Assembly: GCA_051294375.1 (NCBI GenBank) | Contig: JBJCIZ010000824.1 | Span: 19,435-83,434, forward strand | Direction of reading: 5' to 3' | Length of the DNA stretch: 64,000 nt | Source of the DNA: Paraspadella gotoi | Taxonomy: Eukaryota; Animalia; Chaetognatha | Program-made: the position numbers and the translations under genes | Shown: positions 1 to 57,467 of the stretch, one piece after another | Numbering within the stretch: position 1 is the first letter of the stretch | Layout: the number at the start of each line of letters is the position of its first letter | The notes under the pieces: generated by a model | What the model saw: only the letters and a program-made list of their open reading frames with translations | Databases searched by the model: none | What the model was told of the DNA's origin: nothing

Positions 1-306
1 ATCGCTCGAAAGGGAAAACGCACCGAAACGAAAATCGAAGTCACAAACCATCGAAATCGAAGAAATGCCCGAGGTCTGAGGTAAGTTCATCTATTACTCA
101 TGTGCATAAGTAAACAAATTCATTTCGTTCGAATCTGCAAACTATTCAATTCGTTCAACAGCATTCGGTCGGATATTCATCACAATTCGAAAGCAACATG
201 CATTAAAAACTATTGTATGAAATTCAATCGTATAAATATAAGATAAAGAATCGGCACAAATTAATATCGTTCAAAAATAAGATAAAAATAAAATCGATTT
301 ACTACA
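1..306 (-). repeat. Possible 3' LTR of family A (truncated by window edge)
   Basis: On the minus strand a purine-rich tract AAAAGAAACGAAA (319-307) is followed by TGTAG at 306, about 60 nt after the SGNH ORF stop. No second copy in the window to confirm. Confidence 0.35.
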
Positions 307-366
307 TTTCGTTTCTTTTGTATTAACTCCACGAAGGTGAGTTAATGTCGTGAAAAGTCAAATTCT

Positions 367-1019
367 CTATCGATTAGACGGTCTCGGCTGCTGCGGCCAC
401 TCCAATCCCTTCCAAGAGACTGTCCGTGTCGTTCCCAAAACCCAAATAGGTTTGTCCTTCAGCTGCTGCTCATCTTCACAAAATAGTATTCGGTCTAAAA
501 CGTCAAAAAGGATCCTCGTCCCTTGAGCATTTAGGTGAGTTCGATCGTTTTCGTACAAGTTGTTATCTTATATTCATTCTACCATACCTTTTGGTACGGA
601 AACAATTTTGCAAGGCATGGAAATGCAAAGCACTCATCTTGAACATTCTGCTATCAATCTCCGCTGCAGCATGATTGAACGTCTGTCGACCTGTTTTAAA
701 GTCACGACTAATTAGAGTCATCGTCACTACCCTCATTGCAGGGAAACGACTGCACGCCTCCCTCACAAATGCAGACAACTGATCCAGATACACATCGGCA
801 TTCAACTTGGAGCTAACTCGTTTCCACCTCCTATAAACACCATCGTATGATAGTATACATCATTCCTGGCAATTGCTTCGTGAAAATGCGGGAACGTCCA
901 CCGCTGATCGCCGTAGTCGTCGTCCAAGGAATGACGCCATGAAGACGCGAGACGTGGCTGTCGCCGAGGACCCAAAATTTGTCGGCAGCGTTCTTATCGA
1001 CCGTTACTTTCCGCCCCAT
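367..1019 (-). pseudogene. SGNH/GDSL hydrolase-like ORF of family A (frameshifted copy)
   Basis: ORF pieces 831-1055, 563-805 and 367-558 join into the same protein as intact 43157-43867, with VLGDSH, ISGG and NDRTHL. Confidence 0.85.
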
Positions 1020-1128
1020 CAATTGGTATGTCGCTGTAAAGTAAATAAATAACAATGGTAATTAGAAATTAACACCTCAATTAATTCCATCTTAAATTAT
1101 TTTGTTTTCACCGATTCGAAATAAGTTA

Positions 1129-2578
1129 TCAATCCTGATTAATTTTAATGATAACATCAATCGCTTGATTCTTAGTTAAATGAGAACGAATCAATTGGCA
1201 AACAGGAAGAAGTATTATAGTGTTATCTATAACATTTCTTACTTTGTACATTCCTGTACCCACTCTTTCGATTACTTCAAAGGCTGCAATAATTTTCTTT
1301 TGCAATTTCTTATTCATATTAGTTGCAAATGCCATTCTCTTTCGAAATACCACATCACCTTTCCTCAACGCTTCCGTTCGATCGCGAGGTTGAGATGTTG
1401 CTGATAAGTTAACAAATTTGTGTATGCAGCAAGTCGGATGTTTTTATGAGTCTCCAATAACAGGTTGAACTCTTCTTCTATTGCAGTGCTTCCTTCAAAG
1501 GGATCCATCTCTGGAGTCAATGCTTTCATTGCATGTCGTCGAGTTACCTGGAACGGACTCTTTCCTCCCAGAGAAATCGAAGGACACATGTTTATCGAAA
1601 ACTCAACCTTCTTTAAAATTTTCGCCCATTTACGTAAGTCAGGTTCGTTCTCTAACCATTTTAATATACGTATTAACATATTTGGTTTAATCGTTCAGAA
1701 TAGGCTTGGTGTCGACTAACATATGTACTCTGTTGCACCTTTACACCCAACTTTTTCAAAATTATTCGATCTATTTTACGTTGTGTAACACACTTACCGT
1801 CAATGGAAACGCAGTCCCATAACCCAAGATTCAAATATCTTCATAAAAGCCTGGGCTACGTCTTCGGCAGAAGTCGATTTAATTGCAATTAGAAAAGACT
1901 CTCTACTATATGAATCTCTGGCAGAGAAAATAAACCTAAACCCTTGAGAATTTACCAGAGGTCCCAATATATCGCAAGATAAGATCTGTCTGGGACCCAT
2001 CGGCATCATCGTAGAAGGTTTTCTTTTATCGTCGGTTTAATATTGTAACTGATACATATATGACATATTCTAATATTATTAATAATAATGCGTCTCATAC
2101 CTGGTGCATAATATTTATTCGCAATTAGTTTAAAAACAGTATTTGCGTTGCAGTGTCCATAGTCGTCATGTACCTTTTCAGTTATCTCAGTCAAATATTT
2201 GGTATCAATTAAAATAAGTTTATCTATGTCGCCATTTTCTTTAGGGAAAAGTCGAATGATAACGCCTTGATCATTAATCCGAAACAAGGATATATGTCGT
2301 AATATCGTTAGGTCCAGGGATTCTAATAGTAACGTATCGCTTTTGTTTGGATGCGAGTCTTTGTCGTCAATCCATTTTCTCCATTTAGATATCTGGGATG
2401 AATCGCTTTGTAATTTCAGTATTTTATCTTTATCGTCCTCCTTCAAAGTCGGAAGTTGTATATCATCAAAATCTTTATTTGTTTCTAATACAGGTTTATT
2501 AGAGAGCAAATCATTAGTACTTGTCACTTTAATATAATCGGTACTCGTATTTGTCCTTTGTTTCAAAGATTTATACAA
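1129..2578 (-). pseudogene. pol: Integrase of family A
   Basis: HHCC zinc finger (HDDYGH...CHIC), SCDILGP, SIDG and AYSER catalytic motifs, and a GxY-like C-terminal segment (FEVIERVGTGMYKVRN). Confidence 0.88.
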
Positions 2579-2989
2579 TTACAACAACAAGACAATGTTC
2601 GATAGGCATTTCGCTTAGTCCTTTACAATTACATTTGGTACATGGTTCCGATAAAACATCTTTCACCTCCGTTTTCCTTACCTTACCTTTTGCTTCATGT
2701 CGTTGCCCCGTTGCAGGCTGCTCGATCTGTTTTTTCAACTGCGGCGGCCCCTGACGTGCAACGGACTCCAATTCCAGCTCCGTTTCCCAAAACCAGTTAA
2801 CGGGTAAACATCTGTCTCTTGCGAATTTATTTTGTTTATCTTAGCTAAGGGCCCTCTTTTCCCCCCTTTGAAAAATAAATTCAATTCATTAGTTTCTCCT
2901 CAGAGAAAACATTATCGTTGGGGATCTGTTCCCCAAGTGAGTTTCGTATTATAACATTCTGAAAAACATTCTTAGCTTCAGGCTTTTAA

Positions 2990-5480
2990 GTTATTTTCAC
3001 TCGATTCTAAATTCCTTGAGTAATTGATCGCAGCATTAAGAGTCGAAGGTATAAAAGCACCGTTATATCATATTCTTGAATATAATTCAAAGCCCTCGCC
3101 ACTCTCTTCACTCACTATATCCATACTTAACCAATACGAAACGACTCTAGAGTCAACAAAAACATGGTTCGGCACCCAAGTAAATAATGTTTTAAATGCT
3201 TAAGAGACTCGGACAATGAAAATAATTCTTTCAGGCAAATAGGAAGCAAAAGATCGCCGCCCGCAAAAGATTTAGAATAATATTGAATCAAATATAACCT
3301 TTTCTCATCAGGATCGGCACCCTGCAGTACTTCGATATCAGAAGGTCGCTGCAGCTGACACAGCACGCTACCCAAAGCAGTGCGGCTTGCATCCGTGAAA
3401 GAACGAATTCCTCAATCCTCTTCCTCCACAGCAGATCGTAGAACTCCCGTTCGATCGTCTAACAGAATTTTCACACATCGGTGGAATGCTTTCTCCTCTT
3501 CCTCGCCCCATTTGAATCGAACGCTACTCTTCGCCATCGCTCTCAGCGGCAGAGCAGCGTCCCTGAGTAACGCAGTACCTGAAAACCACGCAAGTAGTCC
3601 CAAGAAACTCTTCAGTTGCTCTTTCGACGACGGAGGCTTCAACTGTTGCAAAGACGTCGTCTTATGGGAAGGAAGTCGATGAATACTTTTGAACGAAACA
3701 CAATAGCCCANNNNNNNNNNNTTCTTAAGTCCAAGCGAAACTTTGGCGGCCTTGAACTTCAGATTGAAATAACTCATAGTCGCAAAAAACTGATCCATAT
3801 GCAATAGATGCAAGTCGTGAGTCATGCTGTAGATGATGAAATCATCGACGAAAACGCGGCAAAAATCAACCATTTTCGNNNNNNNNNNATCGGAAACCTT
3901 CTGCGCATCTTGTGGAGCCGACTTCAAGCCCATGGCGACCACACAGAAACGATAAATCTCGTTGTCGGCGTAAAAACAGGTGAGGTCGCGACTCGCAGGC
4001 GCAAGAGCAATCTGCCAGAAATAATCTGTGGCGTCACAGCAAGAAAACAGCTTCTTGCAACTCGCAGCAGCCAGAATATCATCCATCAATTTCATTCTAT
4101 ACGCACGCGTCTCAATCAATTTGTTTACCAAACGATAATCGATAGTCAGACGATTCTTCAATCTTGTTTCTCCAGTCGCAGGGTTCGTAACATGTCGGCT
4201 GACGATATGAGGATTCGAAATGAATTTAGAATCTAACGTTTTCTCAATTATACCGGCTTTCAAAAGTTTTTGTACATAATCTTTTAATATTTCAAGTTTG
4301 GCAGGAGNNNNNNNNNNATATCTATCAATCGTCGGTGGAGGATCATTAATTATGGGAAGTTCAACAGGGGGAAGATTCACCTTTTCTATCATTTGTCTCC
4401 ATTTACCTGCCCAAAACACTCCTCTATAATTCCAAACAATATCTTTATATTTTTCAAGATAGTAATTAGCCTTTTCAGAGCCTAATTCCCACAATTCTTT
4501 CTCTAAATCTTTCCAATCAAACTGAGACAAAAATTCATTTCGGTCAGGCCAATATTCATTCGAACTATTTTTCTTCAATTCAGCCTCCCTATTTATCTCA
4601 AAATCCGGGAAAACAAGATCCGGCGCAGAAGACTTCGGCGGTGGTGAAAACTTCACTCCATTCTCCATCACATCATCCGCTTGATGGGAAGTCAACTTTG
4701 AACCCTTGGGTAAGTCATCCACGTCAATCGGAGATGTCGAACTTACGTTTGAATCTATCACCTTGTGAATTATTGTTACATCTTTTGATTCATCCGTTTC
4801 CTCAAAAACCACTTCTCCAATAACCTGCCTAGCTCTCAGAGACCTTTCTGTTTTATTCTTGTTCATAANNNNNNNNNNGTAAACCTTTTCTTTTCTCTCA
4901 TAGGTAACGCCCAAGACATGAACCCCATCCTTCGGCTCTATACCCACTAAAGAATGAAGACAATCATCAAAGTTGTGATCGCTAATCTCCACTTCAACCG
5001 GAGTGAGGCAAGCTGGTTCGAGTGTTTTCGACGTAAGTGGGAAGAATGTGATGTTTTGTTTCCCATCTCGATCATTCGTAACTTCACCTTTGGCTTCCCG
5101 TTCCAAACTAATTCATTCGTTCGCCTTTATTTCCAAAACACGAGTCCACGTCTCAATATTACAATCATTATTATCCCATCACATCACTTCCCAACAAAGT
5201 TGGACTTTCATATCCCATAACATAAGCGAAAACATTCAATTCCATTTTGTTTAATTTTAATGTTATCATAACATATTCGGAACAGGATATTTCACCTCCT
5301 ATGCCAACTAAAATCTTCGGCGTAGTTAATCTTAATATGTTTAATTTTAATCTAAGGCATTATTGTTTAGAAATCACAGTTCGATCGCTGCCCGTATCGA
5401 CCTCAAAACAAATAACACGAAAACCGTTTCTATTGTTTATATTTCTATCTCACATTTCAAACACAGGCAAGATTAACAGA
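2990..5480 (-). pseudogene. pol: Protease-RT-RNase H of family A
   Basis: VDTGSDRTVIS protease (~5380-5410); RT motifs RLTIDYRLVN, CDATDYFWQI, MGLKSAP, FVDDFII; thumb LKSFLGLLAW; RNase H FTDASRTALGSVL, KELFSL, NAADQLSR. Confidence 0.92.
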
Positions 5481-5652
5481 TTTCCTTGACGACGTACTTT
5501 ACTCTTTCGTCATACCTCACCAGAACCCTTTAACCCTATGTACCCGTTCTAGTCAATCGAGTCAGATTTCAGTGACAATAGTCCTCAAAATCGTCTGCTA
5601 TAAATGTCCATCCTTTACGCTTTATTTTCCCTTCCTCCCGCCTCCTTCTCTT

Positions 5653-6674
5653 TTAATTCTCGTTTCGTTTCTTTTCGCTTTCAAAAGAGAGTAAAATTAT
5701 TCGAGCCATTCTACAGCCTAAAGAGAAATGTTTCGCTTTCTGCACATCTTTCTTACAAAACAAGCATCGTTTCTTAGGACATTTCATGGCCATGTGATCT
5801 TCGTCAAAACAATTCCAGCACACATTTCTTCCGATGTTTTTCTTTTCAGCCAATTCGATATACCGCGATTTCTTTTGAACCATCGCAAAAGATTTCGATT
5901 TACATTCCTCATCCTCACTTCCCTCGCTTTCGAAAAGAAAACCATCATCCTGGTCCGCAACGGAAAAAAAACCTTCGGTCGGTCAGTCCGCATCCAAAAC
6001 GCGAACGATCATTCACAGAATTTCTAAGGCCACATGCATAACCCACGAGCTCCCTAAACGTATAACTAGTATAATTCGAACGTACTAAAGCGGCGCCAAT
6101 CATTCGATCAGTCAGATAAACTTCAAAGACTGAGAATCAACATCCCGCTCCAGTTTCAGACAGAAAATACGAAAACGTCTAGCATATTCCATAATTGTAT
6201 CGCTACCCTGCTTCAGACGACGAAAACCCTGCTCGAGCTCCGTCTGGGGACTAGGGAAAGTAAGGCGGAAAACCTCAGCAAAGAAATTTTCCAAATCAAA
6301 ATCATCAGATTGGGACATCCATTCAAACGTCGCATCAGCATTCGCACGCACATGATTACGACAATGCAAACTAGCAACCAAGCATCGAACCTGTTCGCTT
6401 TCATCACCAAAATATTTCTTAATGTCGCCTTTCAAAATAGATTCATTCGTAATATACTCAATAATATCTTTAGAACTGGATAAAGTAGTTTTTATAATTT
6501 TATACGAATCGGTCAAAACGCCTCTAATTCCTTTTCCTCTCGTTGCAGATGACGACTCACCAGGGCGAGGAGCCCTCGAAGGCGCAGACCCCGAAGTCGT
6601 CGGCGCCCAACCAGGTGCAGCATCCCCGCAAGATGGCGGCGGCGGCGGAGCGGAACCGACTCGTCCCCACGCCG
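5653..6674 (-). pseudogene. gag: Gag of family A with two zinc knuckles
   Basis: Retrotransposon gag motif LKQGSDTIMEYARRF; CWNCFDEDHMAMKC (Cx2Cx4Hx4C) and CLFCKKDVQKAKHFSLGC (Cx2Cx8Hx4C). Confidence 0.88.
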
Positions 6675-27105: not shown

Positions 27106-27349
27106 TGACATTCAATAATAAATTTTGTGCAAAAGAAGAGTGTGAGAGAGAGGGTAAAAGTTTTTCCAACAAAGTGGTAAGACAGAATAGTGGTCAGATG
27201 TGAGGACAGGTTGAAGGTGAGGGCAGATTGAGTGAGTTGTGAAAAGAAGTGAAACTTGTTAAAGAGAAAGAGAGAGTGAGAGAGAGAGAGAAAAAATAAA
27301 ACAACAGAGATAAATAAATAATAAAGATACATTTTTTGCAATGTACAAC

Positions 27350-28600
27350 AAAGATAAAGGAGTTGGAGGACTATGAGGTGGAAGCTTTGGCCTCTTTTCG
27401 ATTGTTGCATGGGGCAGAGTCAGTCCTCTTCTGGTATCGGAAAGCAGACGATACCATTCTGGCTGTGCGCAAAGACCTCATTGAGGATCTACTAAACCAC
27501 CTGAACAGCATCCATGTGCGGATCAAGTGGACATGTGAGAGGGAGGTGAATGGGTCAATTCCAATGCTCGATGTGTTGATTCAACGCAAAGAGGGCGGCT
27601 CATTGGAATTCTCAGTATATTGCAAACCAACCCACACGGACAAATACATTCCCTTCATCTCACATGCTCCCCTGTCTCACAAGCTCGCCACGGTCAGATC
27701 CCTTACCAGGAGAGCTGCACTGATTCCGTCGACCCTCGAGCTTCAGGCCGCCGAGCTTGAGCACATCAAAAGAGCCTTGGTGATCAATGGCTACCCATTG
27801 TGGGCCTTCGAGAAGGCCAGGTATCGGCCGCACCTGGCTGAGGACAGTGGCCAACCAGGGGCTGTCCAAGTAACCGCTGACGCAGGTTCTACCTCCACCC
27901 CCAGGAGGCAGAACGGGAGCTTGCTGCTGAAGAGCCGACCGCGCCCACCACAGCGCAAGTGGAAGATAAGCAGAACGTGGGTCACTTGTCCCTCCCCTAC
28001 CACCAGGGGATCACTGAAGCACTGGTGCGGGTGCTAGCAAAGCAGGGGATCTCCACTTCAGTGACGGCCCGCGGCTCCCTACGTGAGCAATTGGTGAAAC
28101 CGAAAGATAAAATCCCCAGACCGAAAACATCAGGAGCCGTCTACTGGGCGGCCTGTGCAGGGGTGGGCAACCAATCCTGTGCAGCAGCATACGTGGGAGA
28201 GACAGGAAAGTCTCTGACAGATCAATTCCAACAACACAAAAAACCTTACCGTGACGCCCGAGGTCACTATTTGTCCGCAATTGCTGAACATTCAGCAGAC
28301 ACAGGCCATCTGTTCAGGGAATCAGACTGTCTCGTGCTGTCCCATGACCCAAACTGGTTCTCAAGAGGTATTAGAGAGGCAATTTACATCAAAGCCCTCG
28401 AGCCCTCTTTGAACCGTGACGGAGGATGATTCGATCTCCCTCCAAGCTATGATTCGCTTATCAAAAGAGTGGTGGAGGCCCCGCCGCCACCACGCCCGCA
28501 CAATGACTCCCCTATCTCCACTCAACGAGACAGGCGGAGACCCTTGCGCAGGCAATGGGCAAACGATGCCTCTCCCTCAAATGCAGCAACTCAGCCCGAG
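27350..28600 (+). mobile_element. Penelope-like retroelement fragment (RT C-terminus plus GIY-YIG endonuclease)
   Basis: WYRKADDT, HLNSIH..IKWTCERE, LDVLIQR, VYCKPTHTDKY; endonuclease GAVY..C...YVGETGKSL...H, REAIYIK..PSLNRDGG. Confidence 0.92.
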
Positions 28601-31600
28601 CAGCTCGAGCAGGGTTTTCGTCGTCTGAAACAGGGAAGCAAAACGATTATGGAATATGCTAGACGATTTCGTATTTTCTGTCTGAAATTGGATGAAATGG
28701 GATGTTGATTCTCAGTCTTTGAAGTTTATTGAGGGTCTGACGGATCGGATGATTGGCGCCGCTTTGGTATGATCGAATTATACTAGTTATACGTTTAGGG
28801 AGCTTCGTGGTTATGTGTGTGGCCTTAGAAATTCTGTGAATGATCGTTCGCGTTTTGGGATGCGGATTGACCGACTGAAAGTTTTTTCTGTTGTGGACCA
28901 GGATGATGGTTTTCTTTTCGAAAGTGAGGGGAGTGAGGATGATTAAAATAAATCGAAATCTTTTGTCATGGTTCAATAGAAATTGCGGTACATTGAACTG
29001 GCTGAAAAGAAAAACATCGGAAGGAATGTGTGCTGGAATTGTTTTGACGAAGATTACATGGCCATGAAATGTCCTAAGAAACGATGCTTGTTTTGAAAGA
29101 AAGATGTGCAGAAAGCGAAACATTTCTCTTTAGGCTGTAGAATGGCTCCAAATAATTTTACTTCTCTCTTGAAAGCGAAAAAGAAACCAAACGATGAAAA
29201 GAAAGAGAAAGGCGGGAGAGAAAGGAAAAATAAAAGCGGTAAAGGATGACAGTTTTAGCGACGATTTTGAGGACTACTTGTTCACTGACTCTGACTCGGA
29301 TTGACTAGAACGGGTTAATAGGGTTAAAGGGGTTCTTATAGAGGATATTGAACGAAAGAGTAAAGTCCAGCTCGATCAAGGAAGATCTGTTAATCTTGTT
29401 TTGAAATGTGGAGTGAAAAATATAAACAATAGAAACGGTTTTCGTGTTATTTGTTTTGAGGTCGATACGGGCAGCGATCGAACTGTAATTTCTAAACAAG
29501 AATGCCTAAGATTAAAATTAAACATTCTAAGATTAACTACGCCAAAGATTTTGGTTGGCATAGGAGGTGAAATATCCTCTTCTGAATATGTTATGATAAC
29601 ATTACAATTAAACAAAATGGAATTGAATGTTTTTGCTTATGTTATGGGAAATGAAAGTCCAACTTTGTTGGGAAGTGATGTGATGGGATATAATGATTGT
29701 AATATTGATTACGTGACTCGTGTTTTGGAAATAAAAGGCGAACGAATGAAATTGTTTGGATCGATACGGGAAGCCAAAGACGAAGTTACAAACGATCGAG
29801 ATGGGAAACAAAACATCACATTCTTTCCACTTACGTCAAAAACACTCGACCCAGCTTGCATCACTCCGGTTGAAGTGGAGATTAGTGATCACAACTTTGG
29901 TGATTGTCTTCATTCCTAAGTGGGTATTGATCCGAAGGATGGGGTTCATGTTTTGGGCGTTACCTATGAGAGAAAAGAAAAAGTTTACAGAGTTTTAGTA
30001 ATGAACAGGAATAAAACAGAAAGGTCTCTGAGAGCTAGGAAGATTATTAGAGAAGTGGTTTTTGAGGAAACAGATGAATCGAATAGTGATAGGTGATAGA
30101 TTCAAACGTAAGTTCGACAACTCCGATCAATGTGGACGACTTACCCAAAGGTTCGAAGTTGACTTCCCATCAAGCGGATGACGTAATGGAGAATGGAGTG
30201 AAGTTTTCACCGCCGCCGAAGTCGTCTGCCCCGGATCTTGTTTTCCCGGATTTCGAAATAGATAGGGAAGCTGAATTGAAGAAAAATAGTTTGAATGAAT
30301 ATTGGCCTGACCGAGGTGAATTTTTGACTCAGTTTGATTGGAAAGATTTGGAGAAAGAATTATGGGAATTAGGCTCTGAGAAAGCTAATTACTATCTTGA
30401 AAAATATAAAGATATCGTTTGGAATTTTAGTGGAGTGTTTTGGGCAGGTAAATGGAGACAAATGATAGAGAAGGTGAATCTTCCCCCTGTTGAACTTCCT
30501 ATAATTAATGATCCTCTACCGACGATTGATAGATATCGACGGCAATCTCCTGCCAAACTTGAAAGATTATGTCCAAAAATTATTGAAAGCTGGTATAATT
30601 GAGAAAACATTAGATTCTAAATTTATTTTGAATCCTCACATCGTCAGCCGACAAGTTACGAACCCTGCGACTGGAGAAACACGATTGAAAAATCGTCTGA
30701 CTATCGATTATCCTTTGGTAAACAGGTTGATTGAGACGCGTGCTTATAGAATGAAATTGATGGATGACATTCTGGCTGCTGCAAGTTGCAAGAAGCTGTT
30801 TTCTTGCTGTGATGCCACAGATTATTTCTGGCAAATTGCACTTGCGCCTGCGAGTCGTGACCTCACCTGTTTTTACGCCGACAATGAGATTTATCGTTTT
30901 TGCGTGGTCGCCATGGGCTTGAAGTCGGCTCCGCAAGATGCGCAAAAGGTTTCCGATCATATTGTTTCAAAAATGGTTGATTTTTGCCGCGTTTTTGTCG
31001 ATGATTTCATCATTTACAGCATGACCAACGACTTGCATCTGCTGCACATGTAACAGATCTTCGCGACTATGAGTTATTTTAATTTGAAGTTCAAGGCCGC
31101 CAAAGTTTCGCTTGGACTTAAGAAACAGACGATCCTGTGGTATTGTGTTTCGTTCAAGAGCATTCATCGTCTTCCTTCCCACAAAACTATGTCTTTGCCA
31201 TAATTGAAGCCTCCGGCATCGAAAGAGCAACTTTAGAGTTTCTTGGGACTGCTTGCGTGGTTTTCTGGTACTGCATTGCTCAGGGACGCTGCTCTGCCGC
31301 TGCGAGCGATGGCGAAGAGTAGCGTTTGATTCAAATGGGGCGAGGAAAAGGAGAATGCTTTCCATCGGTGTGTGAAAATTCTGTTGGACGATCGAACGGG
31401 AGTTCTACGATCTGCTGTTGAGGAAGAAGATTTCGTTCTTTTCACGGATGCAAGCCGCACTGCTCTAGGAAGTGTGCTGTGTCAGCTGCAGCGACCTTCT
31501 GATATCGAAGTACTACAGGGTGCCGATCCTGATGAGAAAAGGTTATATTTAATACAATATTATTCTAAATCTTTTGCGGGCGGCGATCTTTTGCTTCCTA

Positions 31601-33363
31601 TTTGTCTGAAAGAATTATTTTCGTTGTCCGAATCACTTAAGCATTTCAAACAATATTTACTGGGATGCCGAACACATGTTTTTGTTGACCAGAGAGTCGT
31701 TTCTTATTGATTAACTATGGATATAGTGAGTGAAAGAGTGGCGAGAGCTTTGAATTATATTCACGAATTTGATATAACAGTACGTTTTATACCTTCGACT
31801 CTTAATGCTGCCGATCAATTATCGAGGAATCTAGAATCGAGTGAAAATACCTCTAAAATGCCAGAGGCTAAAAATGTTTTTCAAAATGTCATAATACGAA
31901 ATTCTCTAGGGGAACAGATTCCCAACGATAATGTTTTCTCTGAGGAGAAACGTAAAGAATTGAATTTATTTTTCAAAGAGGGGAAAAGAGGGCCCTTAGC
32001 TAAGATAAATGAAATAAATTTACAAGAGTCAGATATTTACCCTTTAAACTGGTTTTGGGAAACGGAGCTGGAATTGGAGTCCGTTGCACGTCAGGGGCCC
32101 GCGCAATTGAAGAAACAGATCGAGCAGCCTGCAGCGGGGCAACGACATGAAACATTGGAACCATGTACCAAATGTAATTGTAAAGGATTAAGCGAAACGC
32201 CAATTGAACATTGTTCTTGTTGTTATAACTGTATAACAAGTACTTATTTTATTAAAGTGACAAGTACTAATGATTTACTCTCTAATAAACCTGTATTAAA
32301 AACGAATAAAGACTTTGATAATATACAACTTCCTACATTGAAAGAGGACGATAGAGATAAAATACTGAAATTACAAAGCGATTCATCCCAGATGTCTAAA
32401 TGGAGAAAATGGATTGACGACAAAGACTCACAACCGAACAAAAGCGATACATTACTATTAGAATCCCTGGACCTAACGATATTACAACATATCTTTATTT
32501 CGGATTAATGATCAAGGCGTTATCTTTCGACTTTTCCCTGAAGAAAATGGCGACATTGATAAGCTCATTTTAATTGATACCAAATATTTGACTGAGATAA
32601 CTGAAAAGGTACATGACGACTATGGACACTGCAACGCGAATACAGTTTTTAAACTGATTGCGAATAAATACTATGCACCAGGTATGAGACGCCTTATTAT
32701 TAATAATATTAGAAAATGTCATGTATGTATCAGTTATAATATTAAACCGACAATAAAAGAAAAACCTTCCACGATGATGCCGATGGGTCCTAGACACATC
32801 TTATCTTGCGATATTTTGGGACCTCTGGTGAATTCTCACGGGTTTAGGTTTATTTTCTCTTGCCAGAGATTCATATATGTAGTAGAGAGTCTTTTCTAAT
32901 TGCAATTAATCGACTTCTGCCCGAAGACGTGCCCAGGCTTTATGAATGATATTTGAATTCTCATGGGTTGGACTGCGTTTCCATTGACGGTAAGTGTGAT
33001 ACTCAACATAAAATAAATTGAATAATTTTGAAAAAGTTGGGTGTACAAGTACAACAATGTACATATGTTAGTCGACACCAAGCCTACTCTGAACGATTGA
33101 ATCAAATCTGTCTAATACGTATATTAAAATGGTTAGAGAGTGAGCCTGACTTACGTAAATGGGCGAAAATTTTGAAGAAGGTTGAGTTTTTGATAAACAT
33201 GTGTCCTACAATTTTTTTGGGAGGGAAGAGTNNNNNNNNNNTGCGTTTCCATTGACGATAAGTGTGTTACTCAACGTAAAATAGATTGAATAATTTTGAA
33301 AAAGTTGGGTGTAAAAGTACAACAAAGTACATACGTTAGTCGACACCAAGCCTACTCTGAACG
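28600..33363 (+). mobile_element. Gypsy family A, copy 2 (partial gag, PR, RT, RH, IN; many stops)
   Basis: Colinear, highly similar reverse complement of ~6240-1690; same DTG, FVDD, FTDAS and HHCC motifs. Confidence 0.93.
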
Positions 33364-33687
33364 AGGGGCGTTTACCGCCACAGCTCTTCCCCATCCCCGT
33401 CGTCCCCTCCTCCTCATCTCCTCGTCATCCCCTCCTCCTCATCCCTCCGGCAACCCTCGGGCCGGGACCAAGGAATTCACTCTCAGCTCAGCTCTCCGGG
33501 AGTTGGGCAGAATCGCGCTCAACCTACAAGTCGGGGCACAAGAAACCTCCCTCACTCTCTCTCTTATTTTGTACATAACCGTCTTTACTATACTTTAGAC
33601 TTATTAGACTCCATATCTTAAATTACCTCTTTTCCCTAATGAGAGACTAGTTAGTACCTACCTTTAGCTAGATACCCATCTTCCCAG
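33364..33687 (+). repeat. LTR-like repeat (element D, 5' copy)
   Basis: Matches the reverse complement of 36884-37500, minus ~300 bp of internal sequence. Directly followed by a tRNA-complementary sequence. Confidence 0.7.
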
Positions 33688-33740
33688 TGGCGCCCAATGT
33701 GGGGCTCAAACCCACGACCCCAGGATTAAGAGTCCTGTGC
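33688..33740 (-). other. Antisense copy of tRNA-Lys(CTT) 3' portion including CCA (extended primer-binding site)
   Basis: TGGCGCCCAATGTGGGGCTCAAACCCACGACCCCAGGATTAAGAGTC is complementary to the eukaryotic tRNA-Lys(CUU) acceptor stem, T arm and anticodon loop. The encoded CCA argues against a tRNA gene. Confidence 0.85.
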
Positions 33741-36148
33741 GCCCAATCAGGCCTCTCTCCTAGGTTCAACCTACCCCAGGATTAAGATCCCGTGCTTCCG
33801 ACTTTAACCGGCACCTAACCCACCCAACCCACCCGGGGGCGTTCAAAATTCCTCTCTTTTCTTTTTTTAACCTCATCTCTTCTATCTATCCTCGACTCAA
33901 AACTAACCTGGCATTTTTTTTCGTTTTACCTCAATTTTTTTTTTAATTCCGCACTCAAAACTTTTTTTAAAACTAACTTACATTTTTTTTACTGCATTTG
34001 GTAATGTGGTTACTATTGTAATAAAAAAAATTAGATGTTTTAGCAAACAAAACCGTAACTCTTTTACAGATTTGGCGTCTCATCCGTAATTGTGTTAATT
34101 ATTTCCTTTTACAGAGGGGTACGAAGCCTGTCTCTTGTTTCTTGTTTCACAATTTTTTTAAATTAGCGAAATAAATCAAACCTTTTTCCTCAGTGACACA
34201 AAACTGAATGTAAAAACTATCTCTCCTTTTCTCCAAGTGGACGATAATCTTTAAATTTTTTTCACGTCGACGACTCCCGCCTTATTTCAACCAATAGTTA
34301 AAAACAAATTCTTTTTACAGGTCTCCACATTTTCTTTCTATTCAACTAAATTTTGATTTCACCAAATAAATGAGTATCAAAGTAAAGCAAATAAAATTAA
34401 ATNNNNNNNNNNNNNNNNNNNNNNNNNNNNNNNNNNNNNNNNNNNNNNNNNNNNNNNNNNNNNNNNNNNNNNNNNNNNNNNNNNNNNNNNNNNNNNNNNN
34501 NNNNNNNNNNNNNNNNNNNNNNNNNNNNNNNNNNNNNNNNNNNNNNNNNNNNNNNNNNNNNNNNNNNNNNNNNNNNNNNNNNNNNNNNNNNNNNNNNNNN
34601 NNNNNNNNNNNNNNNNNNNNNNNNNNNNNNNNNNNNNNNNNNNNNNNNNNNNNNNNNNNNNNNNNNNNNNNNNNNNNNNNNNNNNNNNNNNNNNNNNNNN
34701 NNNNNNNNNNNNNNNNNNNNNNNNNNNNNNNNNNNNNNNNNNNNNNNNNNNNNNNNNNNNNNNNNNNNNNNNNNNNNNNNNNNNNNNNNNNNNNNNNNNN
34801 NNNNNNNNNNNNNNNNNNNNNNNNNNNNNNNNNNNNNNNNNNNNNNNNNNNNNNNNNNNNNNNNNNNNNNNNNNNNNNNNNNNNNNNNNNNNNNNNNNNN
34901 NNNNNNNNNNNNNNNNNNNNNNNNNNNNNNNNNNNNNNNNNNNNNNNNNNNNNNNNNNNNNNNNNNNNNNNNNNNNNNNNNNNNNNNNNNNNNNNNNNNN
35001 NNNNNNNNNNNNNNNNNNNNNNNNNNNNNNNNNNNNNNNNNNNNNNNNNNNNNNNNNNNNNNNNNNNNNNNNNNNNNNNNNNNNNNNNNNNNNNNNNNNN
35101 NNNNNNNNNNNNNNNNNNNNNNNNNNNNNNNNNNNNNNNNNNNNNNNNNNNNNNNNNNNNNCCACCAAGTGGAGGATAGTATTTTTAGTAGAAAATAATT
35201 CAATGCCAAGGTGAAATTGAAGGAGAATTTATTTAGTGAAACATCGAAGGGGAAGAAATAATAATAATGAGTGCGAGAATAAAATAACAATGACTTTTAT
35301 ATGAACTACTTTGTTTATCAAAGTAGGAATGTAAACGAGAATGGAATTTTAGGCCGGGAGAAATATTATTTACATTTTTGTAATTTACTGAATTCTTTCT
35401 CCCAATCTTCACTACCTCTTCGCTACCTCGCCCTCTCTCTCATCGATGGTTTCGGATCACGCATTCTTTTACTAACCCTCCCCTCGTTGACCCGTGAGCC
35501 GATCCTCGATCTCAGGATCTCTTTCTCGCTCCTTTTTCTTCACTCGCTCTTCTTCCCGGCCTCCTCTTCCTTCTCTCCTTTACGCTGCGCCTCTCTTTCC
35601 TCATCCCTTCCTCATTCGAGAGAGCAGCTGCGCAGGGAAGAACAGCCATGCTCTGATCAAATGACGACTCTCCCACCACTCCTTGCCCCTCACTGGGCCC
35701 CTCACTCGATGCTCACCCTCTCTCTCTCCCATTTCGACTTCCAAACCCAAAAAAAAAAGATCGTTGATCTCTCCCTTCTCTTTCTCTCTGGATTGCATCG
35801 TCACGTGATCAGGCTTCGCTCCCTCTCCCTTCTTGAACATCTCGTCTCTCTCTCTTTCATTTTTTTTTCTCTCTCTCTTTCCACGGTCAAAAATCTCTCT
35901 CTTTGGCTCCTGGCTGGACACTTAACGTCGTCACGTGACTAGGCATCGCTAGGAAACAAAAAAAAAACCAGATCTGACTGAGCTCCCTCTCGCCGCTGAG
36001 TTTGCCCCCCACTTCTTCTCTCTCTCTCTCTCCCTCTCTCTCTAAAGAGAAAAGGCCGAGACCGACGGAGACGGCCATATCTGACCCATTCGACCTATTG
36101 ACCGATCGACCGGACAGAGACTGACCGGACTCTTTCTCCACTCTTTTT

Positions 36149-36406: not shown

Positions 36407-36883
36407 AAGTATTATTAGTGAGTTTATCCATAACATTTCTTACTTTTGTACATTCCTGTACCCACTCTTGATTCCCACTTCAAAGGCTGCGATAATTTAC
36501 TTTTTGCAATTTCTATTCATATTTAGTTGAATGCCGATAAAATACCAACATCACCTTTCCTCAACGCTTATGGTTCGATCCGCTGAGGGTTAGAGGATGA
36601 TGCTGATAAAGTTTCAACAAATTAGTGTATGCAGGGCAAGTCGGATGTTTTTGAGTCCCAATAACATGTTTGAACATCTTACTCTATTGCGCATGCTTCC
36701 TTCAATAGGGACCATCTCTGGAGTCAATGCCTTTCATTGCATGTCATCGAGTACCTGGAACGGACTCTTCCCTCCCAAAGAAATGAAAGGACACATGTTT
36801 AAATCGAAAACTCAACCTTCTTCAAATTTTCGCCCATTTACGTAAGTCAGACTCGAGCCTCCTCTAACCATTTTAATAACGTA
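36407..36883 (-). mobile_element. Gypsy family A integrase C-terminal fragment (inverted piece of copy 2)
   Basis: Matches ~1210-1672 in the same orientation, with many indels. Confidence 0.88.
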
Positions 36884-37500
36884 CTGGGAAGATGGGTATC
36901 TTAGCTAAAGGTAGGTACTAACTAGTCTCTCATTAGGGAAAAGAGGTAATTTAAGATATGGAGTCTAATAAGTCTTAAAGTATAGTAAAGACGGTTATGT
37001 ACAAAATAAGGAGAGAGTGTGGGAGCGTTTCTTGTGCCGACTTGTAGGTTGAGCGCGATTCTGCCCAACTCCCGCGAGAGCTGGCTGAGAGTGAATTCCT
37101 TGGTCGCCGGCCCGAAGGATGGTTAACTAATTGGATCCCGAAGACGGACGAATAGGTATGGGCGATGAATGAATGTTACAGGAGAATCGAGAGGACGACG
37201 AGGAATGATCATTCTCCGTCTCACAGATTATTATTACCGTAAATTAATAATTAATTTAATCGTCATGGTACTTCTTGGTACATTACATTACTCTATATTC
37301 CCGCCCAGACAACTTCCAAGGCCGCCACTTCTTCTCCTCGTTCTCTACACTGTTTCTAGCGCGCGACGAGTGGTCCAAGGTCAGGGTCATGCCCGGACAG
37401 AGATCATGTCCGCCAAAGAGTGAGAGTCGCGTCAGGGCGGCGGACCGCGTCTGAGATGAGGAGGAGACGATGGGAAGAGCTCGTGCGTTGTAACGCTCCC
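36884..37500 (-). repeat. LTR-like repeat (element D, 3' copy)
   Basis: Reverse complement of 33364-33687; preceded on the minus strand by a purine tract (AGAGGGAG); abuts family A integrase. Confidence 0.7.
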
Positions 37501-40500: not shown

Positions 40501-43156
40501 TTTTTCATTCTTATGTAGATATTCTCTTGGTTTTCCTCAAATGCTAAATTTTTTCTTCTCCAGGTCACGATTCATCGAGCTCTCCTCCGACAAATGTTCA
40601 GACCCCCGATGGTGATTTAAGCTCTCTGTGATGACCTATGGTTTACTCCCCGGTAAGTTTGTAACATCTTTTTTAACATTTGACACTTCCATAGATTTTT
40701 GTGTTAATAAGTGCTATATATGATTTGTAAGTTGGGCTTTGCAAGCGCCTCCTCCTCATCTGGAGTCGCAAATATTCAGTCTCGGAATTCATTGCAGCGG
40801 TCAAAACGCCGTTTGACAAAAAAGCGCGCACTGGGCGGCGTGACGTAGAACGCAGTCGGCGCCTGGAGAAGCGAATCAACCCAAAGAGAGTGACGAGATA
40901 TACAATTATTAATATACATTATACAATATACATTTATTATTACATGCATTCAGCGTGTATTCATTATAGACGTTTAAAGTAAAAGTAAAACTTACGGGCA
41001 CGGTGGCGTTTGCGATCTCCCAACTGACGGAGGGCTGCTCGGACCCGTCCTTTTAACATTATGATAATGGACGCACTGTGCAGACGATGTGCTTCGCCCG
41101 CTGAGCCATGAGACAAGGCTGTGATGACGGTCCATTCGGTGTTTTTTATTCGTACCGCTATCAACTGCATTATTTAATCATATTTTTAACGTTTATTTAT
41201 AATTCAGGACGGTCCCTCGCCCTTCGGAGACTGGTCAACGCCGGGGAAGTCGATCCACGCGGACATTAACACATCGACTGGAATCTTAGCTTTGAGCATG
41301 ACGAGCACGGCCTCTCCGGCGCCCGACGCTGGCGACCGCACCGGACCAGTGATTCTGAATGAGGAACGCTCCTCACTTCTCGGTTAAAACGGTCACCCGC
41401 CTCGGAACGTCCAGTGCTAGTCTCTCGTCATCACTCACTGTTTCGTCGGACGGGGAAGAGAATCTGGCGAATTCACCTATTTGCGTATCTGTTGAGTGTC
41501 CATACCTGAGGTAGTCAGGATCTCTCACGGCGGGAAAATTGCTAAAGGGATGAAAGAGTTTGTTTTGGATCTTTAAAACATTCGATACCCGACTACACAG
41601 AACAAAAAGGTAAGACACAGGGAAATATGTTGTCCCCCTGTAATTGCGTATCTCTGCGGTATAAGTAGACGGTTTTTTTTATTTTTCGATTCGGTTCCAT
41701 TCGTGTGGATTTTTTTTTTAACGCTTCGCAGTTTTACATACACCATTGAATGTTCAAGAGCATAACATATATATTACTGCTGGGTTTGATTTTTTTAGAA
41801 GCGGACGTTGTACGTTATTATTTATCTAAAAAATATAATGTTTCGACCCGAAGGGCGGAAAAAAAAACTGGAGCATTGTTTAATAACACAAATAACAGAT
41901 CTGATTAGTATACTTAAATAAAAATTCATGCCTGTGTTCAATCCGTTCGTGTAGAGTATACTCAGTATTCTTCAAAAAAAAAATTGCTGGCCGTCGTATC
42001 GTAAATTTCCAGTTTTGACGTCCTGTTCACCAATATAGGGTTTTCTTTATTGTGCCTGCCTTACATAGTATTGAAGATAAACCCCTTTTTCGATCAAATA
42101 TGGAATTTTTCCGTTCCTGGACATGGGAAGAAACTGGTTTAGAAGCATCCGAAGTTTTTGCGGAGAGGATGATTTGGCGTAACCTTTTGTTTCGTTAATT
42201 AATTATCTTATTTATTTCACGGATTTTATTTTCTTTGCTACAGAATCTAAAATATTTTTTGTAAAGTTTCAAGAAAGTGGTGTTTGATACGTTAACTACT
42301 TTAGGATCTGTATATATTTAGATAAGATGAAAAGGCGCTCTTCTCCTTCAATGACTACTATGTTCGATTTTCAGCGGATGTTGAATGATTGAGTTATTTT
42401 GCCGCCGCGTTATAAAACCGGCAACAAACACTTCAGTTCTGTTACTGTTGACTGTTTACTTGCGCCACAATCCAAAGTAGTTGGCAAAATTGTGGGTTAC
42501 TAGGAAAAAAATTCTAATTATCCGAAATATGATAAAACCTACAATTTTAAGTAAGTAAGTAAGAATTCGGAAATTACTTTTCTACTAATAAATGATTTTC
42601 CTTATAATCTTGCAAATTTTCCAACTCTATATCTACGGTATTATGCAATTTTGCCGTGTTTGTCTACATAAACTATGCTTTTTCTCCAATAAAGGACTTC
42701 TGCAGAGAACTGTGATATATTTAGCCAAAACGAAACATACCAAAGGGGGGTTGGTTTTTGCCATTTTCACATAATTTTAAAGAGGGTTTCGCGGTGTGAC
42801 TTTTCTACTAGAACTGCAGACATCGTCTCGGAAAGTTTTTATCCAGTTTCATTCCTTCCATTACTTCTTTCAGAATAGCATCAATGTAAGCAATAAAAGA
42901 ATTTTTATTTTGAATTTTCATTTTCTGGTTGCTTTATTTGTTCAATTTGCTGTTACCCGCTCTTTAGGTTTAGTGCACTTTGTTAAAAATACGTACTGCG
43001 GATGAAACATATTTACGTACAATCTTCCTGTTTGCCAATTGATCCGTTCTCATTTAACTAAGGATCAAGCAATTGATGTTATCGTTAAAATTAATCAGAA
43101 TTGATAACTTATCTCAAATCGTGAAAACAATTTAACTTAGTATAAGATGGAATAAT

Positions 43157-43867
43157 TTGATGTGTAAATTTATAATTACCATTGTTATTTTTTTTACTGC
43201 GACTTACCAATTGATGGGGCGAAAAGTAACGGTCGATAAGAACGCCGCCGACAAATTTTGGGTCCTTGGCGACAGCCACATCTCGCGTCTTCATGGCGTC
43301 ATCCCTTGGACGACGACGACAGCGATCAGCGGTGGACGATTTCCACATTTTCACGAAGCGATTGCCAGAAATGATGTATACTATCACACGATGGTGTTCA
43401 TAGGAGGTGGAAACAAGTTGGCTCCAAAGTTAAATGCCGACATTTATCTAGATCAGTTGTCTGCGTTTGTGAGGGAGGTGTGCAGCCGGTTTCCGGTGAT
43501 GAGAGTAGTGACCATGTCTCTAATTAGTCGTGATTTTAAAACAGGTCGACAGACGTTCAATCATGCTGCGACGGAGATTGATAACGGAATGTTCAGGATG
43601 AGTGCCTTGCATTCCCAAGCCTTGCAAAATTGTTTTCGTACCAAAAGGTATGGTAGAATGATATTAGACAATAACTTATACGAGAACGACCAAACTCACC
43701 TAAATGCTCAAGGGACGAGGATCCTTTTTGACGTTTTAGACCAGATACTATTTTGCGAGGATGAGCAGCAGTTGAAGGACAAACCGATTTGGGTTTTGGG
43801 CACGACACAGACAGTCTCTTGGAAGGGGCTGGTGTGGCCGCAGCAGCAAAGGCCGTCTAATCGATAG
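43157..43867 (+). CDS. SGNH/GDSL esterase-like protein of Gypsy family A (intact ORF; likely start ATG 43214 or spliced)
   Basis: Block I VLGDSH, block II ISGG, block III FIGGGN and block V NDQTHL in correct order and spacing. Follows the family A integrase tail (43023-43104). Confidence 0.85.
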   Translation: MMCKFIITIVIFFTATYQLMGRKVTVDKNAADKFWVLGDSHISRLHGVIPWTTTTAISGGRFPHFHEAIARNDVYYHTMVFIGGGNKLAPKLNADIYLDQLSAFVREVCSRFPVMRVVTMSLISRDFKTGRQTFNHAATEIDNGMFRMSALHSQALQNCFRTKRYGRMILDNNLYENDQTHLNAQGTRILFDVLDQILFCEDEQQLKDKPIWVLGTTQTVSWKGLVWPQQQRPSNR

Positions 43868-43909
43868 ATAATTTGACTTGTCGCGACATTAACTCACCCT
43901 CGATGGAGA

Positions 43910-45484
43910 GACTTCTACAAAACTAAAAGCAGCAAACGGCTCTCACATAGCCTGCTTTGGCTACACGGACGTACAGGTCCATCTCGGCAGCCGACGCTTC
44001 TACTTCACCATGATCATCGCCGATGTGACGCAACCAATGACTTTTTAGAGGAACATTATTTGGCCCCGAATCATTGCAATTGATTTTTATTCGACCTGCA
44101 GGACCTTAGTACTATTGTTGCCTCAAAAGCAAATATAAAACGTACAATTAGAGTAAATTTCGTCCACCAAGCGGACGACCCATACTACAAACTACTTGAA
44201 ACTTACCATGATTTGTGTACGCCCTCTTTTAAACCTACGGAACCCAAACACGGCATAAAACACTACATCCCTACTACTGGTCAACCCGTGCAATCACAAG
44301 CTCGTAGACTTGCGCCCGACAAACTCGCCGACGCCAAAAAAGAACTTGATAAGTTCTGCAAACTAGGAATCGCCTGCCGGGCCAAAAGTGAGTGGGCATC
44401 ACTGGTTCTGGACATCAACAAGCTAGATGGAGGGTATCGATTCTGTGGCAATTTCAGACGCCTCAACAATGCAACACTGGATGACAAGTACCCTGTGAAG
44501 ACACTGAACGACTTCAACGCCAACCTTAGCGGCATGAAGGTCTTCAGCAAGATAGACCTACTAAAAGGGTACCACCAAATTCCCATCGCCGAGCAAGACG
44601 TAGCTAAAACCGGCGTCAACCCCTTTCGGGTTATATGTTTTCCCAAGGACCCTGTTCGGATTGAATAACGCGGGTCAAGACTTTCAGCGTCCCATGGATG
44701 AGATTTTGGACGTCCTCCCCTTCGTTTTCGTCTACATCGACAATGTTTTGGTGGCCTCCAAAACTCTTCAAGAGCATGAACAACATCTACGCGAAGTCTT
44801 TGATACTCTCCACCAGAACGGGTTCGTCGTCAATCGACAGAAGTGCATCCTGTGTAAACCAGAGCTCGATTTTCTAGGCTACAGAGTCGACTGCAACGGC
44901 ATCTCCCCTTTACCCAACCGAATCTCCGCAATCAACGAGACGACGCCTCCAACTACAATCAAGGAGCTCTAGCGATTCCTTGGTTTAGTAAATTATTATA
45001 GGCGATTCATCTCTCGCTCAGCACATCACTTGTATCCTCTCTTCTAAGCTCTCATGACGAAAACGAAGCCACTTATGTTAGAGTGGATGTCGGAATGCCA
45101 GAAATCATTCGAGGAGATCAAAATCGCGTTGTCACAAGCAACAATGCCTGCTCATCCACGCCCCAAAGCTCCGCTGGCAATTATTTCCGACGCCTCCAAC
45201 ACTGCCATTGGTGCAGTCTTGGAACAACGAGGTTCCAAGGGCTGGGAGCTCTTAGCGTTCTTTTCCGCCAAGCTCCAGAAAAATCAACAACTATGGCCCC
45301 CATTTGATCGCGAATTACTCTCAGCATGGCGAGCAATTCGCCACTTCAAACCAATGATCGAGGGAAGAAACTTCACGCTCTACATCGATCATAATTCGTT
45401 AGTTTTCGCTCTTGCTAAAAAAACTGACCCTCATACGGCTCGTCAGACTTACCAATTGGCTGGAATAGCCGAATATACGACCAT
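43910..45484 (+). mobile_element. pol: CsRn1-clade Gypsy subfamily B2: PR end, RT, RNase H (degenerate)
   Basis: KLKAANGS, FSKIDLLKGYHQIP, VYIDNVLV, ISDASNTAIGAVLEQ, FDRELL; related to but diverged from 52359-54100. Confidence 0.9.
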
Positions 45485-48621: not shown

Positions 48622-49094
48622 GGTTTAGGGTTAGGGTTGAGTTGGTAGTTATATTAATTTTATTTTAGGCTTAATGTTAATATCAATTTTAGGGTTAGGG
48701 GTAGGGAGGGTGTTGTTGATGAATGGGAGGCCCGAGTTAGGGTTAGGGTTAGGGAAGGTACTGGCGAGGGACATTAGGGATTAGGGTTGAGGGACAGAGA
48801 TGTACGGGAGGCCTGGGCCCGGTTTAGGGTTAGGGTTGGGAGAGAGGCCCGTGGGTTATATATCAAAGGCGGTTAGGGTTAGGGTTGAGGTACAGAGATG
48901 TACGGGAGGCCGAGCCTGGGTTAGGGTTAGGGGAGAGGCATGGAGTTGAACGGGAGGCTCGGTTTAGGGTTAGGGTTAAGGGAGGGGCCCGTGATTGATG
49001 CATCGAAGGCCGTTAGGGTTAGGGTTGAGGCATGGAGATGTACGGGAGGCGCAGACCCGGGTTAGGGTTAGGGGAGAGGCAAAGAGTTGAATGG
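48622..49094 (+). repeat. TTAGGG-containing satellite (~140-bp unit)
   Basis: GTTAGGGTTAGGGTTGAGG recurs at 48872 and 49012 (140-bp spacing); three TTAGGG blocks per unit. Confidence 0.88.
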
Positions 49095-56990: not shown

Positions 56991-57087
56991 GGGCCCGTGA
57001 TTGATGCATCGAAGGCCGTAAGGGTTAGGGTTGAGGCATGGAGATGTACGGGAGGCCCAGACCCGGGTTAGGGTTAGGGGAGAGGCA
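56991..57087 (+). repeat. TTAGGG-containing satellite directly abutting the LTR
   Basis: Near-identical to 48985-49081. Confidence 0.9.
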
Positions 57088-57467
57088 NNNNNNNNNNNNN
57101 NNNNNNNNNNNNNNNNNNNNNNNNNNNNNNNNNNNNNNNNNNNNNNNNNNNNNNNNNNNNNNNNNNNNNNNNNNNNNNNNNNNNNNNGTTACTCATTCCC
57201 ATACCGTTATTATTCGAATCACCAAGTCCAAATCTACACAACGTTATATTACATTCAAAATTGGACTCGATATCTTCACAAACAATTATTTTTACTCGTT
57301 TCGATTTCTTTTACTCGTTTTAACACATAGTGTTATATTTTTTCTTAATTTAAGTCAGTTTCACTGACAAATACTTTTCTTTCGAAAACGCTAGATAGCG
57401 TTATTTTTCTTTAGTAGACAAAAGACACGCGAAAATATTTTTTCCCCTGTATTTTATCTGGGGGGCG

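What the first reader, a model, noticed from the sequence alone, without database searches (positions are those of the whole stretch)
43023..43908. Gypsy LTR retrotransposon carrying an SGNH esterase gene in the env position
Seen: both family A copies have the same extra ORF right after integrase (frameshifted at 367-1019, intact here), with GDS, G, GGN and DxxH blocks in SGNH order. It is therefore part of the element, not flanking DNA. Known: SGNH esterase domains occur in ORF1 of some CR1/L2/RTEX LINEs and Penelope-like elements, where they are linked to lipid or membrane binding, and in viral haemagglutinin-esterases. The 3' extra ORF of Gypsy elements is normally env. I know of no described Gypsy lineage with a separate SGNH ORF3. 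Inference: a captured esterase that may help particle-membrane interaction, deacylation or transmission in place of env.
Basis: partly seen in the sequence, partly recalled or inferred. Interest (0 to 1): 0.85.

Follow-up and report, generated by a model that had tools for sequence, protein, structure and literature searches.

The report
Gypsy retrotransposon with esterase third gene
This jumping gene carries, right behind its integrase, an extra gene kept under strong selection that is predicted to fold as an ester-cutting (SGNH) enzyme and likely helps the element inside the cell; the same layout was published for rotifer retrotransposons in 2017, so this is a further, probably separate, lineage of a known design.

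Summary
The ORF is real and belongs to the element. It is an SGNH/GDSL hydrolase (alignment-based model pLDDT 86, best fold matches PAF-acetylhydrolase-like; Ser and Asn in 18 of 18 aligned sequences, His in 17) and follows the integrase tail in both window copies. dN/dS between the copies is 0.09, like RT (0.10). Two metagenome contigs show the same integrase-then-SGNH order at about 41% RT and 31% ORF3 identity, so the linkage is old. Corrections: the protein most likely starts at 43214 (217 aa); the 43-kb copy is a remnant cut off from the rest of pol; no LTR of this family lies in the window. The novelty claim fails: Ty3/gypsy-type elements with a separate GDSL/SGNH ORF3 were described in bdelloid rotifers (Vesta1, PMC5408684), and this scan has noted Gypsy+SGNH variants in other genomes. 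This element lacks Vesta's dUTPase and has a shorter ORF3, so it is probably another lineage. New here are the selection evidence and acceptor-like sites suggesting a spliced mRNA. No transmembrane segment, so an env-like role is unlikely. Verdict: new member of a known kind; modest interest.

The parts
43214..43867 (+). ORF3, SGNH/GDSL hydrolase, 217 aa plus stop; open copy; predicted catalytic Ser21, Asn67, Asp159, His162
43024..43104 (+). last 26 codons and stop of the family's integrase
   Evidence: same tail in L001 and L002
43868..43908 (+). start of the 3' untranslated region, cut off by an unrelated Gypsy pol fragment (43917-45482)
367..1019 (-). ORF3 of copy 1, with three indels and one in-frame stop in this assembly
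1020..1131 (-). spacer of copy 1 with a splice-acceptor-like site (pyrimidine tract plus CAG) about 14 nt before the ORF3 ATG
1132..5400 (-). pol of copy 1 in frameshifted pieces: protease, RT, RNase H, integrase (zinc finger, core, SH3-like end); no dUTPase hit
5650..6674 (-). gag of copy 1 (Retrotrans_gag weak hit, two zinc knuckles); donor-like site at 6560; 5' end lost in the N gap 6675-6774
28602..33364 (+). second family piece: end of gag, protease, RT, RNase H, most of integrase (88.5% to copy 1)
36407..36883 (-). inverted integrase piece that abuts, in family coordinates, the start of the 43023 piece
1..366 (-). 3' region of copy 1 after ORF3; no second copy in the window, so not shown to be an LTR

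Best explanation
This is the third gene of a divergent Ty3/gypsy-order retrotransposon family; it lies directly behind integrase, is kept by purifying selection and encodes a 217-residue protein predicted to fold as a soluble SGNH serine esterase, which is likely made from a spliced mRNA and likely acts inside the host cell, removing short acyl groups at or near membranes to help the element's particles assemble or move, rather than serving as an envelope. Shown: position, linkage in four loci, selection, conserved Ser/Gly/Asn/Asp/His. Predicted: fold and catalytic activity. Inferred: splicing (acceptor-like sites), intracellular site of action (no signal or transmembrane segment), and the membrane link (analogy with the ZfL2-1 ORF1 esterase).
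For: Fold: profile of 18 sequences hits SGNH structures (2hsj E 2e-8, PAF-AH, ZfL2-1 esterase 4c1b E 3e-4); model pLDDT 86.4, pTM 0.85; Foldseek best hits 2hsj and PAF-acetylhydrolase, TM about 0.60, 62 matches at E<=0.001; 15 of 18 members hit Lipase_GDSL_2 at E<=0.1. Catalytic columns: Ser 18 of 18, Asn 18 of 18, His 17 of 18 (one row truncated), Asp 15 of 18. Selection: dN/dS 0.087 (95% 0.04-0.16, 214 codons), RT 0.103. Linkage: L001 has an open RT-RH-IN frame followed by the SGNH ORF, L002 the same integrase tail then SGNH; listed contigs of 3 of 4 laid runs bridge integrase tail and ORF3. Splicing: acceptor-like site before ORF3 in copy 1, L001 and L002, where such sites are rare (3 in 6674 nt, 5 in 5271 nt); L001 and L002 have no Met early enough to include the conserved N-terminal part. 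No hydrophobic 19-mer above 1.6 in 16 relatives. ZfL2-1 esterase hydrolyses pNP-acetate and binds liposomes (PMC3905857, passages).
Against: No substrate, activity or transcript is shown. The membrane link is only an analogy: pI is 9.4 here but ranges 6.0-10.1 across 16 relatives, so a basic membrane-binding surface is not conserved. The window protein alone hits no Pfam family and its single-sequence model failed (pLDDT 33). Two relatives (P0001, P0007) lack the aligned Asp. The 43-kb copy keeps no good acceptor-like site. DNA context was seen for only 2 of 17 relative clusters, both from one metagenome assembly. dN/dS rests on one pair of copies. LTRs were not seen.
Confidence: 0.5

Rival explanations
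1. ORF3 is an active esterase aimed at the host rather than at the particle: it would deacylate a host lipid messenger, glycan or regulatory protein and so blunt silencing or a defence response.
For: Best structural matches are PAF-acetylhydrolases and sialate O-acetylesterases; a separate, soluble, conserved enzyme; PMC3905857 lists such deacylations as options for transposon esterases.
Against: No target is indicated by any search; SGNH fold matches at 13-17% identity do not predict substrate.
Confidence: 0.27
2. ORF3 replaces env and helps particles leave or enter cells, for instance as a receptor-destroying O-acetylesterase.
For: It sits in the env position with env-like splice signals; sialate O-acetylesterases are among the fold matches; PMC5408684 keeps the possibility open.
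Against: No transmembrane or signal-like segment in the conserved 217 aa or in 16 relatives; the hydrophobic start of the 236-aa reading is not conserved; PMC5408684 argues against an env-like role on the same grounds.
Confidence: 0.1
3. The SGNH fold serves as a binding or scaffold module (as in Oskar) and catalysis is incidental.
For: Family-specific conserved features outside the active site (His-rich motif, Thr, Arg, C-terminal W-K-F-like end); two relatives lack the aligned Asp; weak OSK hits in 2 of 18 members.
Against: Ser, Asn and His are invariant in all complete rows at 21-31% identity to the window protein.
Confidence: 0.1
4. The ORF is a passenger: a captured host gene piece or flanking DNA with no use to the element.
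For: The 43-kb copy is a remnant without LTRs; no listed contig bridges its upstream junction at 43022/43023.
Against: dN/dS 0.087; same place behind a homologous integrase tail in L001 and L002.
Confidence: 0.03

Closest known systems
Vesta1 LTR retrotransposons of bdelloid rotifers with GDSL/SGNH ORF3 (Rodriguez, Kenefick, Arkhipova 2017, PMC5408684; parts 1-3 of 5 of the text and the figure legends read, supplement listed but not read)
   Same: gag, PR-RT-RH-IN, then a separate ORF3 encoding a GDSL/SGNH hydrolase with intact catalytic residues and no transmembrane segment; low copy number.
   Different: No dUTPase between PR and RT here; ORF3 is 0.65 kb against 1.3-kb GDSL amplicons; the integrase GPY/F position reads AAF (window) or KVY (L001), not a lone proline; strong purifying selection is seen here whereas the paper found mostly neutral variation among close copies. 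Direct sequence comparison with Vesta1 was not possible.
ORF1 esterase of CR1/L2/RTEX LINEs and Penelope-like elements (ZfL2-1, PDB 4c1b; PMC3905857, passages read)
   Same: SGNH fold on a retroelement with conserved active site; profile hit E 3e-4, fold hit E 1e-4.
   Different: There it is part of ORF1 upstream of pol in non-LTR elements, with a coiled coil; here a stand-alone ORF after integrase. It matches PAF-AH-like proteins better than 4c1b, so no special kinship is shown.
Ngaro-like tyrosine-recombinase retrotransposons with a 3' SGNH ORF (bioRxiv 10.1101/2021.08.05.455354, passages read)
   Same: Extra SGNH ORF at the 3' end of a gag/RT/RH retroelement, function unproven.
   Different: Those integrate by tyrosine recombinase and have split direct repeats; this one has a DDE integrase.
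Tor elements of Oikopleura with env ORF3 (PMC4402516, passages read)
   Same: Third gene after pol, expressed by splicing (Tor3a) or an internal promoter (Tor3b/4b).
   Different: Their ORF3 is a transmembrane glycoprotein; the word esterase does not occur in that text.

Membership tests
SGNH/GDSL hydrolase superfamily | Blocks I, II, III, V with Ser, Gly, Asn, Asp-x-x-His | tested here: met
SGNH/GDSL hydrolase superfamily | alpha/beta/alpha SGNH fold | tested here: met
   predicted model pLDDT 86.4; Foldseek and profile hits
SGNH/GDSL hydrolase superfamily | Ser-dependent ester hydrolysis | not testable with these tools
   needs an assay
Ty3/gypsy LTR retrotransposons | gag, then PR-RT-RH-IN order | tested here: met
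Ty3/gypsy LTR retrotransposons | Paired LTRs with PBS, PPT and target-site duplication | tested here: inconclusive
   5' end in an N gap, 3' end beyond the window start; no repeat of 1-330; L001 ends in a purine-rich tract about 270 nt after ORF3
Ty3/gypsy LTR retrotransposons | RT falls in the Ty3/gypsy clade of a reference tree | not tested
   no named reference RTs were at hand; RNase H and integrase Pfam models are those typical of Ty3/gypsy
Vesta1 (bdelloid rotifers) | GDSL/SGNH ORF3 downstream of pol | tested here: met
Vesta1 (bdelloid rotifers) | dUTPase between PR and RT | tested here: not met
   no dUTPase hit at E<=1 in the PR-RT spacer of either copy; the copies are degraded, so a dead remnant is not excluded
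Vesta1 (bdelloid rotifers) | GPY/F motif of integrase reduced to a proline | tested here: not met
   AAF in copy 1, KVY in L001 at the matching place, read by eye
Vesta1 (bdelloid rotifers) | pol and ORF3 group with Vesta1 in a tree | not testable with these tools
   Vesta sequences could not be fetched
Retroviral-type env ORF3 | Signal peptide and transmembrane anchor | tested here: not met
   hydropathy scan; an unseen upstream exon could add a signal peptide

The most novel reading that the evidence does not exclude
An undescribed, deep-branching and widespread Ty3/gypsy lineage captured an SGNH esterase independently of rotifer Vesta and has kept it for a very long time (ORF3s only 21-31% identical to this one); in this family splicing from a donor early in gag joins the proline-rich Gag N-terminus in frame to the esterase (donor at 6560 and acceptor near 1033 share phase 1), giving a Gag-tagged enzyme that is packaged with the particle.
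Probability: 0.15. Interest if true: 0.6.

Novelty: new member of a known kind. Interest (0 to 1): 0.3.

Why it matters
The layout itself is known, so the finding does not open a new class. It does show that esterase ORF3s are not a rotifer oddity and that selection on them can be as strong as on RT, which the 2017 paper could not show. A compact, single-domain, 217-aa protein with a family of at least 17 distant relatives is a convenient object for asking what retroelement esterases act on, a question open since the ZfL2-1 structure.

Tried and rejected
No whole genome is held, so no genome-wide copy census. Pfam on the ORF alone: nothing. Word-seeded protein search with the ORF: 0 of 69 candidates passed; with the alignment only 2 proteins, both already in it. 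Single-sequence fold: pLDDT 33, not used. P0016 (35-residue match in a 1054-aa repeat protein) was dropped from the 18 hits. Metagenome scan with the window protein: 0 of 50 candidate stretches confirmed. L003 (1 of 3 loci) and L004 are short matches; L003 has no ORF of 120 aa at the match, L004 (34 residues) was not examined further; both set aside. Viral contigs: nothing. No RNA holder listed for the stretch; X9 is only guessed to be RNA, and neither laid stretch held both the donor and the acceptor, so splicing is untested. Contig depth (copy-1-like variant about three times the 43-kb-like variant in X1, X3, X9) is not a copy number. ORF3 tree: 1 of 15 inner branches well supported, window protein unplaced. 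The 'IN tail' row was in the wrong frame and is ignored. ESM Atlas gave GDSL clusters for ORF3 (score 0.92) and generic RT clusters for L001 pol: leads only. The reading of 1-330 as 3' LTR was rejected: no second copy, and contigs run through it unbroken. Literature searches; Repbase, Dfam and GyDB could not be searched, so further described Gypsy+SGNH families may exist there.

Full report
Observation. The window is repeat-rich eukaryotic DNA with N gaps. An open frame at 43136-43867 carries GDSH, ISGG, GGGN and DQTH in SGNH order. The stretch 43023-43908 matches 327-1210 on the minus strand at 89%. Copy 1 (minus strand, 6674 to 1) shows gag with two zinc knuckles, protease, RT, RNase H, integrase and then this ORF, which has three indels and one in-frame stop in this assembly. 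At 43 kb the ORF follows the last 26 codons of integrase. The rest of that family's pol lies at 28602-33364 and, inverted, at 36407-36883, with other repeats between, and the piece is cut 41 nt after the stop by an unrelated Gypsy fragment; that downstream junction is bridged by near-exact contigs in X1, X3 and X5, while no listed piece bridges 43022/43023 (4053 pieces were not shown). So the finding's copy is a remnant with an open ORF3. No LTR of this family is in the window: the 5' end falls in a gap and the 330 nt after ORF3 have no second copy.

What the protein is. Pfam does not hit it alone. An exhaustive phmmer search gave 18 hits at E<=0.001; 17 are 135-285-aa proteins that align over the domain at 21-31% identity, and one was dropped as spurious. 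Fifteen of the 18 aligned sequences hit Lipase_GDSL_2 at E<=0.1. The profile finds SGNH structures in the PDB, including PAF-acetylhydrolases, sialate O-acetylesterase and the ZfL2-1 ORF1 esterase. The alignment-based model has pLDDT 86.4 and pTM 0.85 and its best Foldseek hits are 2hsj and PAF-acetylhydrolase at TM about 0.60. Ser and Asn are in 18 of 18 rows, His in 17, Asp in 15. The first 19 codons of the 236-aa reading are not conserved between the copies and relatives begin near residue 19-20, so the protein probably starts at ATG 43214 (217 aa). It has no transmembrane-like segment; nor do the 16 relatives scanned.

Is it part of the element and useful to it? Between the two window copies ORF3 has dN/dS 0.087 (95% interval 0.04-0.16; mismatches 8, 10 and 43 at codon positions 1-3), against 2.27 and 1.45 in the shifted frames and 0.103 for RT. 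This is one pair of copies, and the RT pair may not be the same two insertions. Listed contigs of X1, X3 and X9 bridge the integrase tail and ORF3 (3 of 4 runs, 2 studies, one of which may be the window's source). Copy 1's breaks look private to it or to the assembly: the indel near 573 is absent in all four runs, and a 360-nt X5 contig that differs from copy 1 by 3 letters and 2 gaps aligns without gaps to the open copy (I take the two rows, equal in length and depth, as one contig). Far outside this genome, metagenome contig L001 has an open 1423-aa RT-RH-IN frame followed by an SGNH ORF; its RT is 41% identical to copy 1, its pol 32-51% to family A pieces but 24-28% to the window's other Gypsy family, and its ORF3 about 31%. 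L002 shows the same integrase tail followed by an SGNH ORF 45% identical to that of L001. Context was seen for only 2 of 17 relative clusters, both in one assembly. A word-seeded search with the L001 RT-RNase H among 782-2491-aa proteins found 7 hits at 23-26% identity, which hints at a deep lineage, but that search is not exhaustive.

Expression. Copy 1, L001 and L002 each have a pyrimidine tract plus CAG between the integrase stop and ORF3; such sites occur 3 times in 6674 nt of copy 1 and 5 times in 5271 nt of L001. L001 and L002 lack a Met early enough to include the conserved N-terminal part, so an upstream exon or a non-AUG start is needed there. In copy 1 a donor-like site early in gag (6560) has the same phase as the acceptor, which would join the Gag N-terminus to the esterase; this has a one-in-three chance by luck, sits near an assembly gap, and the acceptor phase in L001 and L002 differs. 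The 43-kb copy keeps no good acceptor-like site. All of this is inference; no RNA evidence was obtained.

Mechanism. Most likely (0.5) a soluble short-chain esterase acting inside the cell at membranes during particle assembly or traffic, by analogy with the ZfL2-1 esterase, which hydrolyses pNP-acetate and binds liposomes (PMC3905857, passages). Against the membrane part, pI varies from 6.0 to 10.1 in the family. Rivals: a host-directed deacylase (0.27), an env substitute (0.1), a non-catalytic scaffold (0.1), a passenger (0.03).

Comparison with what is known. PMC5408684 (parts 1-3 of 5 and figure legends read; supplement listed, not read) describes LTR retrotransposons of bdelloid rotifers (Vesta1) with gag, pol and a separate GDSL/SGNH ORF3 with intact catalytic residues, no transmembrane segment and a proposed membrane or auxiliary role. 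PMC6431247 repeats this (passages). Ngaro elements also carry a 3' SGNH ORF (passages). The present element works like Vesta1 in layout but is not filed under Vesta: no dUTPase was found between PR and RT, the integrase end differs, and ORF3 is half the size of the 1.3-kb Vesta1 amplicons. Kinship could not be tested by tree. Nine literature searches listed no description of this particular lineage, judged from listings; Repbase, Dfam and GyDB were not searchable. Earlier notes of this scan report Gypsy and copia elements with SGNH cargo in other genomes (unchecked), none with similar sequence.

Verdict. Observation confirmed with corrections; interpretation partly supported; new member of a known kind; interest 0.3. 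The boldest reading still open is an independent, ancient capture with a spliced Gag-esterase fusion (probability 0.15, interest 0.6).

Noticed in passing
window 33365-33752 and 36883-37121: A very high-depth LTR-like repeat occurs twice in opposite orientation next to the family A integrase pieces; the first is followed by a tRNA-like sequence on the minus strand (33691-33752, Rfam tRNA 39.8 bits). It may be a nested LTR or TRIM insertion plus an inversion or mis-scaffolding. Earlier notes describe tRNA-bearing TRIMs in this genome; Rfam found no twister in this window at gathering score.
   Followed up: partly
window 18653-24761 (-): BEL/Pao element (Peptidase_A17, DUF5641 hits), with a Gypsy RNase H piece at 25230-25883.
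   Followed up: no
window 27318-28430 (+): Fragment that reads like a Penelope-like element (RT end plus GIY-YIG-like stretch, recognised by eye from recall; no Pfam hit), directly before the second family A piece.
   Followed up: no
window 43917-45482, 49095-56821, 57188-64000: A second Gypsy family in several nested pieces with a proline-rich integrase tail and short LTR-like repeats.
   Followed up: no
window 17343-17825, 48692-49095, 56990-57087: Repeats that contain short TTAGGG runs, next to the second Gypsy family's repeats.
   Followed up: no
window 16174-16863 (+): Open frame with four Ephrin_rec_like cysteine repeats, host exon or cargo of an element.
   Followed up: no
L001 1400-2900 and window 2580-3100: The lineage has a long, variable insert between RNase H and integrase (about 500 aa in L001) and an atypical RT motif A region (CDATDYFWQI / CDALNFFWQI).
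   Followed up: partly
alignment A1: The ORF3 family shares a His-rich motif after the fourth helix and a C-terminal W-K-F-like end predicted as extra beta strands; role unexplained.
   Followed up: no
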